NCBI GenBank assembly: GCA_001794435.1
Contig: MGJU01000014.1
Span: 93,494-146,664 of the forward strand
DNA from: Candidatus Yanofskybacteria bacterium RIFCSPHIGHO2_02_FULL_43_17
Lineage (GTDB): Bacteria; Patescibacteriota; Minisyncoccia; 2-02-FULL-40-12; GWA2-44-9
Length of the DNA stretch: 53,171 nt
Reading direction: 5' to 3'
Shown: positions 12,410 through 32,700 of the stretch, one piece after another
Numbering within the stretch: position 1 is the stretch's first letter
How the letters are laid out: each line of letters begins with the position of its first letter
The notes under the pieces: generated by a model
Told to the model about the DNA's origin: nothing
Databases searched by the model: none
The model's input: the letters and a program-made list of their open reading frames with translations, nothing else
Translations under genes and position numbers: made by a program

Positions 12410-12835
12410 CTACGCCAGTTGAACGTAAAGTGCGGACTTGCCGTTTGGTTTGAATCTGAGGATATTTCCCCCTTTTGTTGGTACCGAGATCAGTCCCTCG
12501 ACTGCCTGAAGGCATTGATCGTCGACAGAGAACTCATGCCTATGCTCCCTGATTTCTTTTTCGGTAGGATCCCTTAGAAGAACGGCCCCGTGGCAGGGTT
12601 TAGATTCGGTAATTAAGCGATGCCTCTTCGGGTCAAAAGGGTGTTCACTAAAGACGGCGATATTGATCCCATGCAGATCAGAACACGTACCGGTCCCCTC
12701 ACTGATACCAAGCAAGTGTAATTTTTTCCCGCTTCTTTTGTTGAGAAGTATTTTAGGACCATGCTTGACGGTCATGTTAATCCTTGTAATGACCGATTCC
12801 GCTGCCCGTCGCTGGTACTGTCTGATTGAACTCAA
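12410..12835 (-). CDS. Hypothetical protein
   Basis: 141-aa ORF with own TTGACA/TATGAT promoter, GGAGAG SD and downstream hairpin. Confidence 0.55.
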   Translation of the reverse strand: MSSIRQYQRRAAESVITRINMTVKHGPKILLNKRSGKKLHLLGISEGTGTCSDLHGINIAVFSEHPFDPKRHRLITESKPCHGAVLLRDPTEKEIREHRHEFSVDDQCLQAVEGLISVPTKGGNILRFKPNGKSALYVQLA

Positions 12836-12923
12836 GGAACTCTCTCCGCCCGAAAGTGTGCCTATATCATAGATAATTTATGGGCTTTGTCAATGTTTAG
12901 AATCGTAGACAAATCGGAACTTG

Positions 12924-31056: not shown

Positions 31057-31857
31057 ATGCCTAATTATCCCCAGAGATTAGTAGGTTGGATTTTGGATAC
31101 GATATTTCCCAAAATATGTTTGGGATGCGGCAAGTTTACCCGCCTAAATTTTGCTTCGCAAAACTTAGGCGGGTTTACCGATAAAAAAGATTTTGATTAC
31201 GTGTGCAGGAAATGTTTCGGAGAAATTGATCTGAAAAACACTTTTGAGTGTATTGGATGCAAAAGACAAACTCAACTCGGCCTTACCTGCACGTTCTGCA
31301 AAAAAGACAATTATATTGACCAGCTTCTGATAGCAGCCGAATTGACGGATCCTTTAGTAGAAAAAATACTCAAGGCATACAAGTATAAATTTATATGCGA
31401 CATGGCCATGCCGTTGTCCATGATCGCCAAGAAATGCGTTAAGAGACTGCTGTCAAAGGGCTTTGTTCTTTTTGAGAGCAACCCCATTTTGGTCCCGGTG
31501 CCGTTGAGCGGCAGTCGTTTGAATTGGAGGGGTTTCAATCAAGCCCAGCTTTTGGCCAGATCATTGTCGGACGGGTTTCTGGCGTCCTGCGGCGAGGGCG
31601 TTCTGGCAAGGATAAATTGTTTCCGGCATCAGGCGGACATACAAGCAAAGGAAGACAGGATTAATAATGTAAAGGATAACTTTGCCGTAAAAGACAGCGA
31701 ATCAATAAGGGGCAGGACGGTAATTTTGGTTGACGATATTTGTACTACCGGCGCGACGCTTAACGAATGCGCGAGGGTCTTGAAGAATCCGCCAGCCGGC
31801 GGAGGAGCGAGAAGGGTTATCGGCTTTGTAATCGCGAGAGGACAATTTAAGAGATAG
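31057..31857 (+). CDS. comF: ComF/ComFC family competence protein (zinc ribbons plus phosphoribosyltransferase)
   Basis: FPKICLGCG, PVPL...RGFNQAQLLA and LVDDICTTGATL motifs. Confidence 0.9.
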   Translation: MPNYPQRLVGWILDTIFPKICLGCGKFTRLNFASQNLGGFTDKKDFDYVCRKCFGEIDLKNTFECIGCKRQTQLGLTCTFCKKDNYIDQLLIAAELTDPLVEKILKAYKYKFICDMAMPLSMIAKKCVKRLLSKGFVLFESNPILVPVPLSGSRLNWRGFNQAQLLARSLSDGFLASCGEGVLARINCFRHQADIQAKEDRINNVKDNFAVKDSESIRGRTVILVDDICTTGATLNECARVLKNPPAGGGARRVIGFVIARGQFKR

Positions 31858-31936
31858 GAATTAGGAAGTTAGGAAATAGATAACAAAAACAGAATCTGGA
31901 ATTAATATTGAAAACGTGGTAAAATTTGATGAATTT

Positions 31937-32187
31937 GGTGAGGTGCGGCGAATGGTAAGCCAGCAGTTTGTTCCCGATTTGTTCAAGAGCAAAGCGATTG
32001 ATCACAAATCGCAATCCCGTTGGAGGGGCGGAGACGTGGCTGAGTGGTCTAAAGCGGCACGGTGCTAACGTGTTGAGGGGGAAACTCCTCCGCAGGTTCG
32101 AATCCTGCCGTCTCCGCCCCTTTTGCGGGACTAAACTGTAACCGTCTAAAAAGCGGTTTGTGGGTTCGACCCCTACCCTCACCGCCA
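31937..32187 (+). ncRNA. Interrupted Ser-like class II tRNA scaffold; a 160-nt insert in its anticodon loop contains tRNA-Ser(GCT)
   Basis: 5' half 31937-31970 is GGTGAGG-TGC-GGC-GAATGGTAA-GCC-A-GCAGT-TTG. 3' half 32131-32187 is CTAA-ACTGT-AACCGTCTAAAAAGCGGTT-T-GTGGG-TTCGACC-CCTAC-CCTCACC-G-CCA. Confidence 0.8.
32030..32116 (+). tRNA. tRNA-Ser(GCT), nested
   Basis: Acceptor GGAGACG/CGTCTCC-G; anticodon arm GCACG-GT-GCT-AA-CGTGT; long V-arm GAGGGG-GAAA-CTCCTC; GGTTCGAATCC; no encoded CCA. Confidence 0.93.
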
Positions 32188-32475
32188 GTTGGAATTTTGC
32201 AAGAAAGAAGGGTCAAGCTCGCGGCGCGTCTCGCGCCGCTCGCATAGAATTTGAAAGGGATTTTTTGGCGAAAAGGAATGGTTCAATAAATTCACCACAA
32301 GAAGGATTTGAAGTGGGGGGACAAAAGCAAAGTCCCGCACCGAGCTTCGCTCTGGTGCGTGGGAAATTTCTCATCTTAATTTTTTCCAAGAAGCGGCAGT
32401 TTAGCCGCTTCCTTGACCTCTAGATAATTATGATGTAATATATCGTGTTAGAACCTGAACATTAAGGAGGCTCTT

Positions 32476-32700
32476 ATGTTTGACGTGTTGATGCACGTTT
32501 TCATGAACATCTGCGCATTGTTGATTCTTGTCTTCTATGTGCTGGCGGCTATCGCTCCGATTGCAGTATTTGCGTTCATATGGTACTGCTTTTGGATAGC
32601 GATGGGGGGACACGAACAGGACAACATCTGGACCGAAGATGTCCGGCGACAGAAGTTGGAACGAATACGACGATGGAATCTTGAGCGGAGGTTGTCATGA
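32476..32700 (+). CDS. Small membrane protein
   Basis: AAGGAGG SD, hydrophobic N-half, ATGA overlap with the next ORF. Confidence 0.6.
   Translation: MFDVLMHVFMNICALLILVFYVLAAIAPIAVFAFIWYCFWIAMGGHEQDNIWTEDVRRQKLERIRRWNLERRLS

What the first reader, a model, noticed from the sequence alone, without database searches (positions are those of the whole stretch)
31937..32187. Nested tRNA: an intact tRNA-Ser(GCT) inside the anticodon loop of a second Ser-like tRNA
Seen: the outer RNA has every cloverleaf element. These are a 7-bp acceptor GGTGAGG/CCTCACC with G73 and encoded CCA, a D-arm GGC-GAATGGTAA-GCC (A15 fits U48; one extra nt after G9), an anticodon stem GCAGT/ACTGT, a long V-arm AACCG..CGGTT and a T-arm GTGGG-TTCGACC-CCTAC. 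Its loop is interrupted by 160 nt. Removing 31971-32130 gives TT-GCT-AA (Ser); neighbouring junctions give ACT or GTT. The insert is ordered: a hairpin CGATTTGT..ACAAATCG, then a ~15-bp stem TCCCGTTGGAGGGGC/GCCCCTTTTGCGGGA that extends the acceptor stem of a complete, sequence-distinct tRNA-Ser(GCT) at 32030-32116. The only promoter-like motif (TGG-TAAAAT, 31917) precedes the outer 5' end, so one transcript is likely. Known: SerRS recognises the V-arm and acceptor end rather than the anticodon, and about 70 non-tRNA nt is far too little for a group I intron core. Inference: the outer RNA could be a serylatable anticodon-less or two-piece tRNA (non-ribosomal Ser donor or decoy), a precursor spliced by an unknown route, or a regulator of release of the inner tRNA. 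I do not know of a described bacterial tRNA-in-tRNA of this kind.
Basis: partly seen in the sequence, partly recalled or inferred. Interest (0 to 1): 0.93.

Follow-up and report, generated by a model that had tools for sequence, protein, structure and literature searches.

The report
tRNA-carrying mobile cassette inside tRNA gene
A resident serine tRNA gene has been split in its anticodon loop by a 160-base hairpin element that brings its own complete serine tRNA with the same anticodon, and this element belongs to a large, apparently undescribed family that replaces tRNA genes in this way in many tiny-genome (CPR) bacteria.

Summary
Window 31937-31970 plus 32131-32187 is a complete tRNA-Ser(GCT), interrupted between anticodon bases 34 and 35 by exactly 160 nt (31971-32130). 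The insert holds a second, different tRNA-Ser(GCT) at 32030-32116.

Relatives carry the outer tRNA uninterrupted at the same locus. Four DNA metagenomes hold both the nested and the uninterrupted form.

The insert belongs to a conserved cassette family: a fixed 5' end, a covarying hairpin, a fixed 16-mer, a stem, the cargo, a stem, and a fixed CGGGA end.

In my census of 127 cassettes from CPR genomes and metagenomes, 66 carry a tRNA (Ser x4 anticodons, Val, Cys, Ala, Arg, Gly).
- In 54 of the 58 with both ends defined, the cargo anticodon equals the one rebuilt from the flanks.
- After in-silico removal the outer gene is still callable in only 19 of 58.
- Cassettes without cargo never sit in an intact tRNA (0 of 24, and 0 of 44 undefined ones).
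- Double and triple nests exist, as does a 5S-in-5S nest.

Best reading: a miniature mobile DNA element disrupts the resident tRNA gene and substitutes its own copy, read from the resident promoter. The outer halves are a fresh relic.

Splicing of the outer tRNA is not supported but is not excluded. The insertion enzyme is unknown. Six literature searches found no description.

The parts
31917..31925 (+). Extended -10-like motif TGGTAAAAT, the promoter of the resident (outer) tRNA gene. Inferred to drive the whole nested transcript.
   Evidence: Sequence. The same motif lies 10-20 nt before the orthologous tRNA in G002, G007 and G027, and G006. The simple scan does not call it. No promoter-like site lies between it and the inner tRNA.
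31937..31970 (+). 5' half of the resident outer tRNA-Ser(GCT): acceptor strand, D arm, anticodon-stem 5' strand, U32, U33 and G34.
   Evidence: Contiguous with the 3' half in uninterrupted homologues of G009 and G033. ARAGORN calls tRNA-Ser(GCT) after in-silico removal of the insert.
31971..32130 (+). The 160-nt cassette: the mobile insert, including its cargo.
   Evidence: This exact stretch is skipped by the joint 31970->32131 in contigs of 4 of 4 DNA runs and is absent from the relatives' tRNA. It belongs to a family of 127 cassettes.
31971..32019 (+). Left module: fixed TTCCCGATTTGT, a variable hairpin (31983-32003), then fixed ACAAATCGCAATCCCG. Helix P_a pairs 31975-31982 with 32004-32011.
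   Evidence: MFE fold. In an alignment of 50 family members, 12 pairs are predicted and 5 show compensatory changes in the part not fixed by my search pattern. CM R1 scores this copy at 70.1 bits.
32015..32029 (+). 5' strand of helix P_b (TCCCG) plus the extension stem that runs into the inner acceptor stem.
   Evidence: Pairs with 32116-32130 in the MFE fold. G002 shows a compensatory change (GGGGC/GCCCC becomes GTGGC/GCCAC). L098's second cassette has TCCTG/CAGGA.
32030..32116 (+). Cargo: a complete inner tRNA-Ser(GCT) with no encoded CCA. It is the only tRNA-Ser(GCT) that ARAGORN calls in the genome.
   Evidence: Rfam 56.9 bits. ARAGORN. It is 83-91% identical to stand-alone tRNA-Ser(GCT) genes of G008, G020, G023, G006 and G001, and only 63% identical to its own outer gene.
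32117..32130 (+). 3' strand of the extension stem plus the fixed right end CGGGA.
   Evidence: In the 83 family members for which a 3' end was set, that end was located by searching for C[G/A]GG[A/G], so its constancy is partly built in; examples are shown.
32131..32187 (+). 3' half of the resident outer tRNA-Ser(GCT): C35, U36, the rest of the loop, anticodon-stem 3' strand, V arm, T arm, acceptor strand, G73 and CCA.
32221..32239 (+). G+C-rich hairpin downstream of the outer tRNA, part of the conserved 3' flank of the locus. Likely end of the transcription unit (inferred).
   Evidence: The same flank follows the uninterrupted outer-type tRNA in G028, the stand-alone inner-type tRNA in G006, and the innermost tRNA in metagenome locus L206.

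Best explanation
A miniature, protein-less mobile DNA element (the cassette) inserted into the anticodon loop of the resident tRNA-Ser(GCT) gene. It landed exactly between G34 and C35, with no duplication or loss of target bases.

The cassette has two parts. The first is a conserved left hairpin module. The second is a long stem whose tip holds a complete, foreign tRNA-Ser(GCT).

Shown:
- The insertion, its exact borders, and the existence of the uninterrupted allele.
- Membership of a large family that obeys a same-anticodon, same-orientation rule.
- A preference for inserting after (T/A)TG in loops.
- Decay of the outer genes elsewhere in the family.
- Replacement of the tRNA type at this syntenic locus among relatives.

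Inferred:
- The cassette has no promoter of its own, so the inner tRNA is transcribed from the resident promoter at 31917. RNase P and RNase Z release it, and CCA is added afterwards.
- The two outer halves are by-products and are not rejoined.
- The insertion destroys the only resident gene for AGY codons, so only cassettes carrying a matching, co-oriented tRNA survive. The host then cannot lose the cassette. This is gene replacement acting as an addiction mechanism.
- The relic is later removed by deletions, probably between the directly repeated tRNA ends, leaving a clean replacement as in G006.
- In this genome the outer halves are still perfect because the insertion is recent.

The insertion enzyme and the way cargo is loaded are unknown. 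The features resemble hairpin-guided single-strand DNA transposition of the IS200/IS605 (PATE) type more than anything else known, but I give that sub-claim only about 0.25.
For: 1. Exact insertion and an empty site. Relatives G009 and G033 have the two halves contiguous. G028, G007, G038 and G027 have uninterrupted outer-type tRNA-Ser(GCT). Contigs of 4 of 4 DNA runs carry a joint 31970->32131 that skips exactly 160 nt, at depth 50-76, and their 5' half differs from the window by one base. Zero-difference pieces span both junctions of the nested form in X1 and X4 and cover the whole layout in X1 and X3; X2's listed pieces leave gaps.

2. Family. The 16-mer of the left module occurs in 8 of 105 genomes of the order, spread over 4 families. 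CM R1 gives full-length matches in about 10-16 of 105.

3. Census of 127 cassettes.
- 66 have a tRNA cargo.
- Of the 58 with both ends defined, 54 rebuild the cargo's anticodon at the junction of the flanks.
- 19 of 58 give a callable outer tRNA after removal, and 18 of those 19 have the same anticodon and strand as the cargo.
- 39 of 58 outers are no longer callable.
- 0 of 24 cargo-less cassettes, and 0 of 44 with an undefined 3' end, restore a tRNA.
- The 5' flank has T at -2 in 119 of 127, G at -1 in 89 of 127, and T or A at -3 in 110 of 127.

4. Nests of two and three layers: L098, L256, L187, L206. There is also a 5S rRNA inside a 5S relic, L190.

5. The same genome has a second nest on contig C22, Ser-GGA inside a Ser-GGA relic whose anticodon stem no longer pairs.

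6. Decay at this very locus. G002 (same genus) keeps the cassette, the inner tRNA and the outer 3' half but lacks the 5' half. A co-occurring variant keeps only 19 letters in place of 31928-32008.

7. Replacement at a syntenic locus. The homologue of ORF 31057-31857 sits beside the tRNA whatever its form:
- outer-type in G009, G007, G033, G027 and G028;
- inner-type alone in G008, G020, G023 and G006;
- nested in G002.
G006 has the inner-type tRNA between the same promoter motif and the same 3' flank.

8. The cargo is foreign. Inner versus own outer identity has a median of 0.70 (range 0.61-0.89) over 18 pairs.

9. Three further cargo cassettes found with the CM rather than the exact pattern fit the same-anticodon rule at their 5' junction (Val, Arg, Gly; read by eye; the Gly 3' flank was not checked).
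Against: 1. No RNA data exist for this organism, so processing, and the absence of rejoining, are inferred.

2. The outer gene here is flawless, which is also what a spliced, functional outer tRNA would look like.

3. The G000 and G002 outer 3' halves differ by paired changes that keep the V arm. This fits either independent invasions of two functional alleles (my reading; the G002 variant's 5' arm and four of five 3'-arm bases recur in the uninterrupted tRNAs of G007 and G038) or continued selection on the outer half after insertion.

4. No enzyme is identified.
- The one Y1/HUH gene of G000 is flanked by its own, different hairpins.
- That family is present in 53 of 105 genomes and in 7 of the 8 cassette genomes, which is only a weak enrichment among related genomes.

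5. Selection alone does not explain how closely related left modules come to carry Val, Gly, Ser-TGA or Ser-GGA cargo. It also does not explain why cargo borders are so exact: the base before the tRNA pairs with the discriminator.

6. The census is biased. It was seeded with exact matches to the conserved arms, relies on ARAGORN defaults, and draws on metagenome contigs that are not independent.

7. A module with the same 5' sequence forms the 5' edge of a group I intron in 23S rRNA. A link to introns is therefore not excluded.
Confidence: 0.72

Rival explanations
1. The cassette is a true intron. After transcription the inner tRNA and the arms are cut out and the two outer halves are ligated, for example by RtcB. 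One gene would then yield two working tRNA-Ser(GCT) species.
For: The outer gene is intact here and in 19 of 58 family members. Insertion is base-exact and lies in a loop, as for introns. The arms bring the two junctions together at a three-way junction. G000 encodes RtcB.
Against: - 39 of 58 outers are decayed, while no case was found of a decayed cargo in an intact outer.
- Cargo-less cassettes never sit in intact tRNAs (0 of 24 and 0 of 44).
- RtcB is present in only 4 of 105 genomes of the order and is missing from 7 of the 8 cassette genomes and from G002.
- No archaeal-type splicing endonuclease was found.
- No ribozyme family matches.
- Cassettes occur antisense to the interrupted RNA (Ala, Cys, some Ser-CGA, 5S) with the cargo flipped to stay in sense. 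This points to DNA-level insertion plus selection for expression.
Confidence: 0.12
2. A designed nested or two-piece tRNA. The outer halves stay paired through the acceptor, anticodon and extension stems and act without ligation, as a Ser donor, a decoy, or a regulator of inner tRNA release.
For: All outer arms are intact, with G73 and the long V arm that SerRS uses (established knowledge, recalled). The fold is strong.
Against: The same layout occurs for Val, Arg, Cys, Ala, Gly and 5S rRNA, so it is not serine-specific. The outer halves are lost or broken in close relatives and in most family members. Relatives have either tRNA type alone at this locus.
Confidence: 0.04
3. The cassette is a degenerate group I intron whose catalytic core was replaced by a tRNA. 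The family descends from, or is mobilised with, group I introns.
For: About 14 family members sit at one 23S rRNA site, and there the same 5' module is followed by a group I core (RF00028: 41.5 and 38.2 bits in L211). This genome has group I introns in tRNA-Met, tRNA-Asp and probably tRNA-Thr.
Against: - No group I match in the window cassette.
- Only 7 of 127 cassettes have both core motifs downstream, all at the 23S site.
- This genome's own tRNA introns do not start with the module.
- The 5' exon ends in G and the insert ends in A rather than U...G.
- Antisense insertions exist.
- The 23S case is equally explained as a cassette sitting in the first loop of an intron, where it does no harm.
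Confidence: 0.08
4. An assembly chimera of two tRNA-Ser genes.
For: tRNA genes are repeats that assemblers can mis-join. G000 is a 23-contig MAG.
Against: Zero-difference contig pieces span both junctions in X1 and X4 and cover the whole layout in X1 and X3. The same architecture appears in well over a hundred independent contigs and genomes.
Confidence: 0.01

Closest known systems
Group I introns in bacterial tRNA anticodon loops (e.g. cyanobacterial tRNA-Leu(UAA), Azoarcus tRNA-Ile; recalled, and the review PMC3984707 seen only as a search listing)
   Same: A base-exact interruption of a bacterial tRNA gene in the anticodon loop. Sporadic, mobile-looking distribution. The same genome holds real examples.
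   Different: No catalytic core. The wrong boundary bases. Only about 73 non-tRNA nucleotides. It carries a tRNA. It also occurs antisense. The interrupted gene decays, which a self-splicing intron would not cause.
Integrative elements (phages, ICEs, archaeal pNOB8/SSV-type) that integrate into tRNA genes and carry a replacement for the displaced part. One example is the Caldiarchaeum tRNA-Thr locus (PMC3293823; I read the outline and abstract only).
   Same: A mobile DNA targets a tRNA gene, keeps tRNA function by bringing tRNA sequence with it, and leaves a displaced fragment of the old gene.
   Different: Those are kilobase elements with an integrase. They restore only the part 3' of the crossover through an identical core sequence. 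Here the element is 55-180 bp with no gene, brings a whole and different tRNA, shares no core with the target, and leaves both halves of the old gene around it.
MITE-like hairpin elements: IS200/IS605-derived PATEs, and REP/REPIN elements with RAYT transposases (recalled)
   Same: Tens to hundreds of bp, with no ORF. Conserved sub-terminal hairpins. No target duplication. A short fixed target next to one end. Many copies, some in tandem or in other hairpins.
   Different: None is known to carry a tRNA in a hairpin tip or to nest in the matching tRNA gene. The end geometry differs: the hairpins lie 4 and 0 nt from the ends. No cognate transposase has been shown.
Archaeal disrupted tRNA genes: BHB introns, split tRNAs of Nanoarchaeum, tri-split and permuted tRNAs (reviews PMC4033280, PMC4090602 and PMC3978253 seen only as search listings)
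   Same: tRNA halves separated by foreign sequence, with complementary sequences that could hold the halves together.
   Different: This is a bacterium. There is no splicing endonuclease gene and no BHB at the junctions in the fold. The intervening sequence is itself the working tRNA.

Membership tests
tRNA (Rfam RF00005), inner gene 32030-32116 | Cloverleaf scoring above the curated threshold | tested here: met
   56.9 bits against a cut-off of 29. ARAGORN calls Ser(GCT).
tRNA, outer gene 31937-31970 + 32131-32187 | Callable as a tRNA once the insert is removed, and has uninterrupted homologues | tested here: met
   ARAGORN calls tRNA-Ser(GCT) on the script-joined halves. Contiguous homologues occur in G009 and G033, and uninterrupted outer-type genes in G028, G007, G038 and G027.
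Group I intron (RF00028) | Conserved catalytic core P3-P9 | tested here: not met
   No RF00028 match in 31700-32500 at E<=10. As positive controls in the same genome, the tRNA-Met intron scores 48.2 bits and the tRNA-Asp intron 44.8 bits.
Group I intron (RF00028) | 5' exon ends in U (U-G pair in P1) and the intron ends in G | tested here: not met
   The exon ends in G at 31970 and the insert ends in A at 32130. The junction is fixed by the uninterrupted homologues.
Archaeal-type (BHB) tRNA intron | A splicing endonuclease encoded in the genome | tested here: not met
   PF01974 is not found in G000 (100% complete). It rang in 4 archaeal control genomes.
Archaeal-type (BHB) tRNA intron | A bulge-helix-bulge at the two junctions | tested here: not met
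   In the MFE and centroid folds both junctions lie at a three-way junction between the outer anticodon stem, P_a and P_b.
IS200/IS605-type non-autonomous element (PATE) | No target-site duplication, with exact insertion | tested here: met
   Exactly 160 nt are added relative to the uninterrupted alleles.
IS200/IS605-type non-autonomous element (PATE) | Conserved sub-terminal hairpins rather than terminal inverted repeats | tested here: met
   P_a and P_b hairpins. 5 of 12 P_a pairs show compensatory changes across 50 copies.
IS200/IS605-type non-autonomous element (PATE) | A short fixed target immediately 5' of the left end | tested here: inconclusive
   There is a (T/A)TG preference: T at -2 in 119 of 127, G at -1 in 89 of 127. 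TTA, GTT, GGA and ATA flanks also occur.
IS200/IS605-type non-autonomous element (PATE) | A Y1 (HUH) transposase that recognises these ends | tested here: inconclusive
   G000 has one Y1_Tnp gene, but it is flanked by a different hairpin. The family is present in 53 of 105 genomes of the order and in 7 of the 8 cassette genomes. Activity cannot be tested here.
Integrase-type integrative element at a tRNA gene | Encodes a recombinase, and attP shares a core with the tRNA | tested here: not met
   The insert is 160 nt and is fully accounted for by hairpins plus a tRNA. The only ORFs listed across it (31847-32182 on the minus strand, 32160-32423 on the plus strand) are mechanical. There is no shared core at the junctions.
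Split or permuted tRNA | Halves at separate loci or in permuted order | tested here: not met
   Both halves are collinear and 160 nt apart.

The most novel reading that the evidence does not exclude
The outer tRNA is still made. Once RNase P and RNase Z cut out the inner tRNA, the two outer pieces are held together by the acceptor, anticodon and P_b/extension helices. They are then trimmed at the fixed TTCCCG and CGGGA borders and ligated. This would be a protein-dependent bacterial tRNA splicing pathway in which the intron is itself a tRNA. In the same reading, cargo is loaded at RNase P/Z-defined tRNA ends by an RNA-level route. That would explain the base-exact cargo borders and the quick exchange of cargo among near-identical arms.
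Probability: 0.08. Interest if true: 0.95.

Novelty: categorically new. Interest (0 to 1): 0.88.

Why it matters
If this reading holds, CPR bacteria harbour a class of selfish element that works by gene replacement. It destroys an essential, single-copy tRNA (or 5S rRNA) gene and supplies its own copy in the same stroke, so the host becomes dependent on the invader.

This would explain three things:
- how tRNA genes at a conserved locus switch between unrelated sequence types among close relatives;
- why CPR tRNA and rRNA genes are littered with odd insertions and fragments;
- how foreign tRNAs spread horizontally.

It also gives a living, polymorphic model for how tRNA genes become disrupted. 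Intact, nested, half-decayed and resolved alleles co-occur in the same groundwater and soil samples. Until now that question has been argued mainly from archaeal split and intron-bearing tRNAs.

There is a practical consequence. tRNA finders miss the outer genes and may mis-annotate the relics. The conserved arms make an easy marker for surveys.

Tried and rejected
- Group I intron: rejected for the window insert.
- Known ribozymes or other Rfam families in 31700-32500: nothing beyond the tRNA and chance-level matches.
- BHB splicing: no endonuclease.
- TnpB: PF07282 not found.
- RtcB as a general partner: present in G000 but in only 4 of 105 genomes of the order.
- RAYT/Y1 gene of G000 as the mobilising enzyme: it is flanked by its own, different hairpin, and NCBIfam gives 40.7 bits, below the cut-off of 80. 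Its distribution across the order is only weakly enriched. Left open.
- ORF-bearing autonomous copies: the two long candidates (1591 and 2020 nt) were wrong 3'-end calls of short empty cassettes. None was found among the 44 undefined ones.
- Strand test: I counted G:T against A:C mismatches in the arms of direct and inverted cassettes to tell RNA-level from element-strand selection. The counts were 45:22 and 17:17. My offset choice favoured G:T, so this is inconclusive.
- Viral contigs: 0 exact matches to the two-part pattern.
- RNA evidence: no RNA holder was listed for the stretch, so expression and processing could not be examined.
- A cassette-like start after tRNA-Pro at window ~12910 is only a short fragment.
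- My first collection scan used a 15-mer that was too short. Most of its 120 loci were chance hits, and about 20 were real.
- Supplementary files of papers were not opened. They could hold tRNA gene lists for CPR genomes that bear on the claim that this is not in print.
Full report
WHAT IS THERE

The window is contig C14:93494-146664 of an 862-kb, 23-contig genome rated 100% complete. I infer it to be of CPR/Patescibacteria type from its size, and because every named genome holding the same element is a CPR MAG, apart from one titled Nanoarchaeota.

A complete class II tRNA is interrupted in its anticodon loop by 160 nt (31971-32130), and the insert contains a second complete tRNA-Ser(GCT) at 32030-32116.
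- The inner gene is called by ARAGORN and by Rfam at 56.9 bits.
- The outer gene is not called in place, even with ARAGORN's intron option.
- After a script removes 31971-32130, the outer gene is called as tRNA-Ser(GCT), with the junction after nucleotide 34.
- The MFE fold of the 251 nt gives both cloverleaves plus two insert helices. These are P_a (31975-31982 with 32004-32011) and P_b plus an extension (32015-32029 with 32116-32130) that stacks on the inner acceptor stem. Energy is -115 kcal/mol, z is -5.9, and 0 of 200 shuffles do as well.

THE OUTER GENE IS THE RESIDENT GENE AND THE INSERT IS AN INSERTION

A BLAST of 31900-32230 against 40 relatives found the two outer halves lying directly side by side in G009 and G033. 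G028, G007, G038 and G027 carry uninterrupted tRNA-Ser(GCT) genes of the same outer type, and the join falls exactly at 31970|32131.

The upstream ORF (31057-31857) has a homologue next to the tRNA in these genomes. The TGGTAAAAT motif and the downstream G+C hairpin flank recur there too.

Most other relatives have, at the same syntenic place, a stand-alone tRNA of the inner type that is 83-91% identical to 32030-32116. In G006 it sits between the same promoter motif and the same 3' flank. This locus has therefore switched tRNA type among relatives, and G000 shows the intermediate state.

Four public DNA metagenome runs were laid on the window.
- Zero-difference pieces span both junctions in X1 and X4 and cover the whole layout in X1 and X3; X2's listed pieces leave gaps. 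The layout is not a misassembly.
- All four also hold contigs with a joint 31970->32131 that skips exactly 160 nt, at depth 50-76. Their 5' half differs from the window by one base, so this is the uninterrupted allele in co-occurring relatives.
- Because these are DNA runs, the joint says nothing about splicing.
- A third form replaces 31928-32008 by 19 other letters, so most of the outer 5' half is gone.

The same-genus genome G002 has the cassette, the inner tRNA and the outer 3' half, but no 5' half at all.

THE INSERT IS ONE COPY OF A FAMILY

The left part of the insert recurs upstream of the tRNA-Ser(GGA) on contig C22 of the same genome. There a complete tRNA-Ser(GGA) sits inside the halves of another Ser-GGA gene whose anticodon stem no longer pairs.

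The 16-mer at 32004-32019 (one mismatch allowed) occurs in 8 of 105 genomes of the order, scattered over four families. A covariance model of the left module gives full-length matches in roughly 10-16 of 105.

Collection scans found it in MAGs titled Saccharibacteria, Wolfebacteria, Terrybacteria, Portnoybacteria and others. No viral contig matched.

The common plan, from 5' to 3', is:
- a fixed TTCCCGATTTGT;
- a variable hairpin;
- a fixed ACAAATCGCAATCCCG;
- an extension stem;
- the cargo;
- an extension stem;
- a fixed CGGGA (sometimes CGGGG).

In an alignment of 50 copies the hairpin part, which my search pattern did not constrain, keeps its pairing through many compensatory changes: 5 of 12 predicted pairs, for example CG 33 / UA 13 / AU 3 at one pair. 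P_b also covaries, as TCCTG/CAGGA in L098 and GTGGC/GCCAC in G002.

CENSUS

The census covers 127 distinct cassettes.

Cargo called by ARAGORN:
- Ser-GGA 14
- Ser-TGA 11
- Ser-CGA 9
- Val-TAC 7
- Cys-GCA 7
- Ala-CGC 6
- Arg-GCG 5
- Ser-GCT 4
- Gly-CCC 3
- none 25
- undetermined 36

Findings:
- Of the 58 with cargo and both ends defined, 54 rebuild the cargo's anticodon at the junction of the joined flanks.
- After removal, 19 of 58 give a callable outer tRNA, and 18 of those 19 have the same anticodon and strand as the cargo. The other 39 outers are no longer callable.
- Among cargo-less cassettes, 0 of 24 sit in a callable tRNA. One further case is a double nest. None of the 44 with an undefined 3' end restores a tRNA under any short end.
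- Cargo-less copies lie in relics beside a cargo-bearing cassette, in tandem, or in intergenic hairpin-rich DNA.
- The 5' flank is T at -2 in 119 of 127, G at -1 in 89 of 127, and T or A at -3 in 110 of 127.
- The position within the loop therefore follows the sequence: after G34 for GCT, GGA and GCG; after G35 for TGA; after A35 for TAC. The T loop is used for some Ser-CGA.
- For Ala, Cys, some Ser-CGA and 5S rRNA the arms are inverted relative to the interrupted gene, but the cargo is flipped so that it stays co-oriented with it.
- Two- and three-layer nests occur (L098, L256, L187, L206). A complete 5S rRNA lies inside a 5S relic in L190.
- The cargo is not a fresh duplicate of the target. 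Identity has a median of 0.70 over 18 pairs, and is 0.63 here.
- Three further cargo cassettes found by the model rather than the exact pattern fit the rule at their 5' junction.

Caveats: the sample was seeded with exact arm motifs, ARAGORN defaults decide what counts as callable, and the metagenome contigs are not independent.

HOW IT MOST LIKELY WORKS

Shown:
- exact insertion without duplication;
- empty-site alleles;
- a sporadic, multi-site family;
- the same-anticodon and same-orientation rule;
- decay of the outer genes;
- type replacement at a syntenic locus.

Inferred:
- The cassette has no promoter. Its tRNA therefore depends on read-through from the resident promoter, which explains the orientation rule.
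- Insertion kills a single-copy essential gene. ARAGORN finds only one Ser-GCT and one Ser-GGA in this genome. Only insertions that bring the matching tRNA therefore survive, which explains the anticodon rule and the absence of empty cassettes from live tRNAs.
- The host is then locked to the cassette.
- The relic is later trimmed or cleanly resolved.

The insertion chemistry is unknown. The features resemble IS200/IS605-type single-strand transposition most: loops of hairpin-forming genes as targets on either strand, sub-terminal hairpins, no duplication, and a short 5' target. However, the only Y1 gene of G000 has its own different hairpins, and its distribution is uninformative.

Two things remain unexplained. 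Near-identical arms carry different cargo. Cargo borders are exact, with the base before the tRNA pairing with the discriminator.

RIVALS

- Splicing of the outer tRNA is the main rival. Against it stand the decay pattern, the missing empty-in-live class, the antisense copies, the absence of a splicing endonuclease, and RtcB being present in only 4 of 105 genomes (G000, G007, G031, G091). Seven of the eight cassette genomes and G002 lack RtcB. For it stand the perfect outer gene here and the paired V-arm differences between G000 and G002. I attribute those differences to separate invasions of two functional alleles, because the G002 variant's 5' arm and four of five 3'-arm bases are also found in the uninterrupted genes of G007 and G038.
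- A link to group I introns is raised by about 14 copies at one 23S rRNA site, where the same 5' module precedes a group I core. No such core accompanies any tRNA cassette.
- Misassembly is excluded.

COMPARISON AND NOVELTY

The element shares single features with tRNA group I introns, with integrase-type elements that repair the tRNA they enter (Caldiarchaeum example, abstract only), with MITE/PATE/REP hairpin elements, and with archaeal split tRNAs. It fails a defining test of each, or the test is inconclusive (see Membership tests).

Six full-text searches found no bacterial tRNA-in-tRNA or tRNA-carrying hairpin element. Subscription-only papers and supplements were not searched. I rate it categorically new, with the mechanism still open.

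Noticed in passing
G000 contig C22, about 12560-12830, minus strand (locus L053); outside the window: A second nest in the same genome. A complete tRNA-Ser(GGA) with the same cassette arms sits inside the halves of another Ser-GGA gene. The relic's acceptor strands still pair, but its anticodon-stem strands (CATAC against GGCGG) do not.
   Followed up: yes
G000 contig C1, 13481-13709, minus strand; outside the window: A complete tRNA-Ser(CGA) is flanked by a perfect 14-bp leader/trailer stem. It lies beside a 5'-truncated copy of the same tRNA that carries a ~35-nt hairpin insert where its D arm should be. Similar small inserts sit in D loops of relics in L100, L206, L187 and L302. This looks like an arm-only cassette and a further small element family.
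   Followed up: partly
G000 C1:14769-15148, C12:19912-20204 (minus strand), C5:44267-44534: tRNA-Met, tRNA-Asp and tRNA-Thr(GGT) genes carry introns of 308, 216 and 192 nt. The first two match the Rfam group I model at 48.2 and 44.8 bits, just under the cut-off. The third is weak at 14.8 bits.
   Followed up: partly
G000 whole genome: ARAGORN finds no tRNA-Asn and no tRNA-Trp in a genome rated 100% complete, even with the intron option. It does call a tRNA with anticodon TTA (labelled Stop) at C13:59957-60030.
   Followed up: no
G000 C23:5414-8101, minus strand: RtcB is encoded in one 934-aa open frame as two Pfam pieces about 1.2 kb apart, which suggests an intein. RtcB is rare in this order, present in 4 of 105 genomes.
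   Followed up: partly
Window 31978-32008. Copies at G000 C19:26187-26217, C19:55181-55205, C19:55932-55955, C19:7975-7997, C10:18041-18063, C14:34155-34177 and C3:462-478. Also L308 and L320.: The variable hairpin of the window cassette is about 90% identical to a hairpin repeated elsewhere in the genome. Its loop contains a GCGAAGC-like mini-hairpin. Two copies abut, on the other strand, the start codons of genes I identified by eye as dnaK and rpmA (no tool check), so that the start codon lies in the stem. The same arrangement, a hairpin abutting a start codon on the other strand, recurs in other genera.
   Followed up: partly
L211:287-622, and about 13 further metagenome loci with the flank GGCTATATG: In 23S rRNA, at a site I judge by eye and from recalled E. 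coli sequence to lie near E. coli position 1950, the same 5' module is followed by an ~83-nt non-tRNA segment and a group I intron core (RF00028, 41.5 bits). I could not decide whether the module is part of the intron or an insertion in its first loop.
   Followed up: partly
L190:1030-1560 (also L050, L165, L191): A 5S rRNA inside a 5S rRNA. A complete 5S gene with long complementary arms sits in a loop of a 5S relic, and an empty cassette lies 8 nt away in the same relic.
   Followed up: yes
G000 C13:187697-188410 (L177:1297-2010): A RAYT-like Y1 transposase gene has a perfect ~39-nt palindrome (starting CCTGTGGATAATCGACTT) upstream of it and another copy at its 5' end. This is a separate REP-like system.
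   Followed up: partly
Window 12895-12922, minus strand: Directly after tRNA-Pro(CGG) comes a string resembling the cassette's first 11 bases with one C missing. The rest of the cassette is absent. This is probably chance or a remnant.
   Followed up: yes
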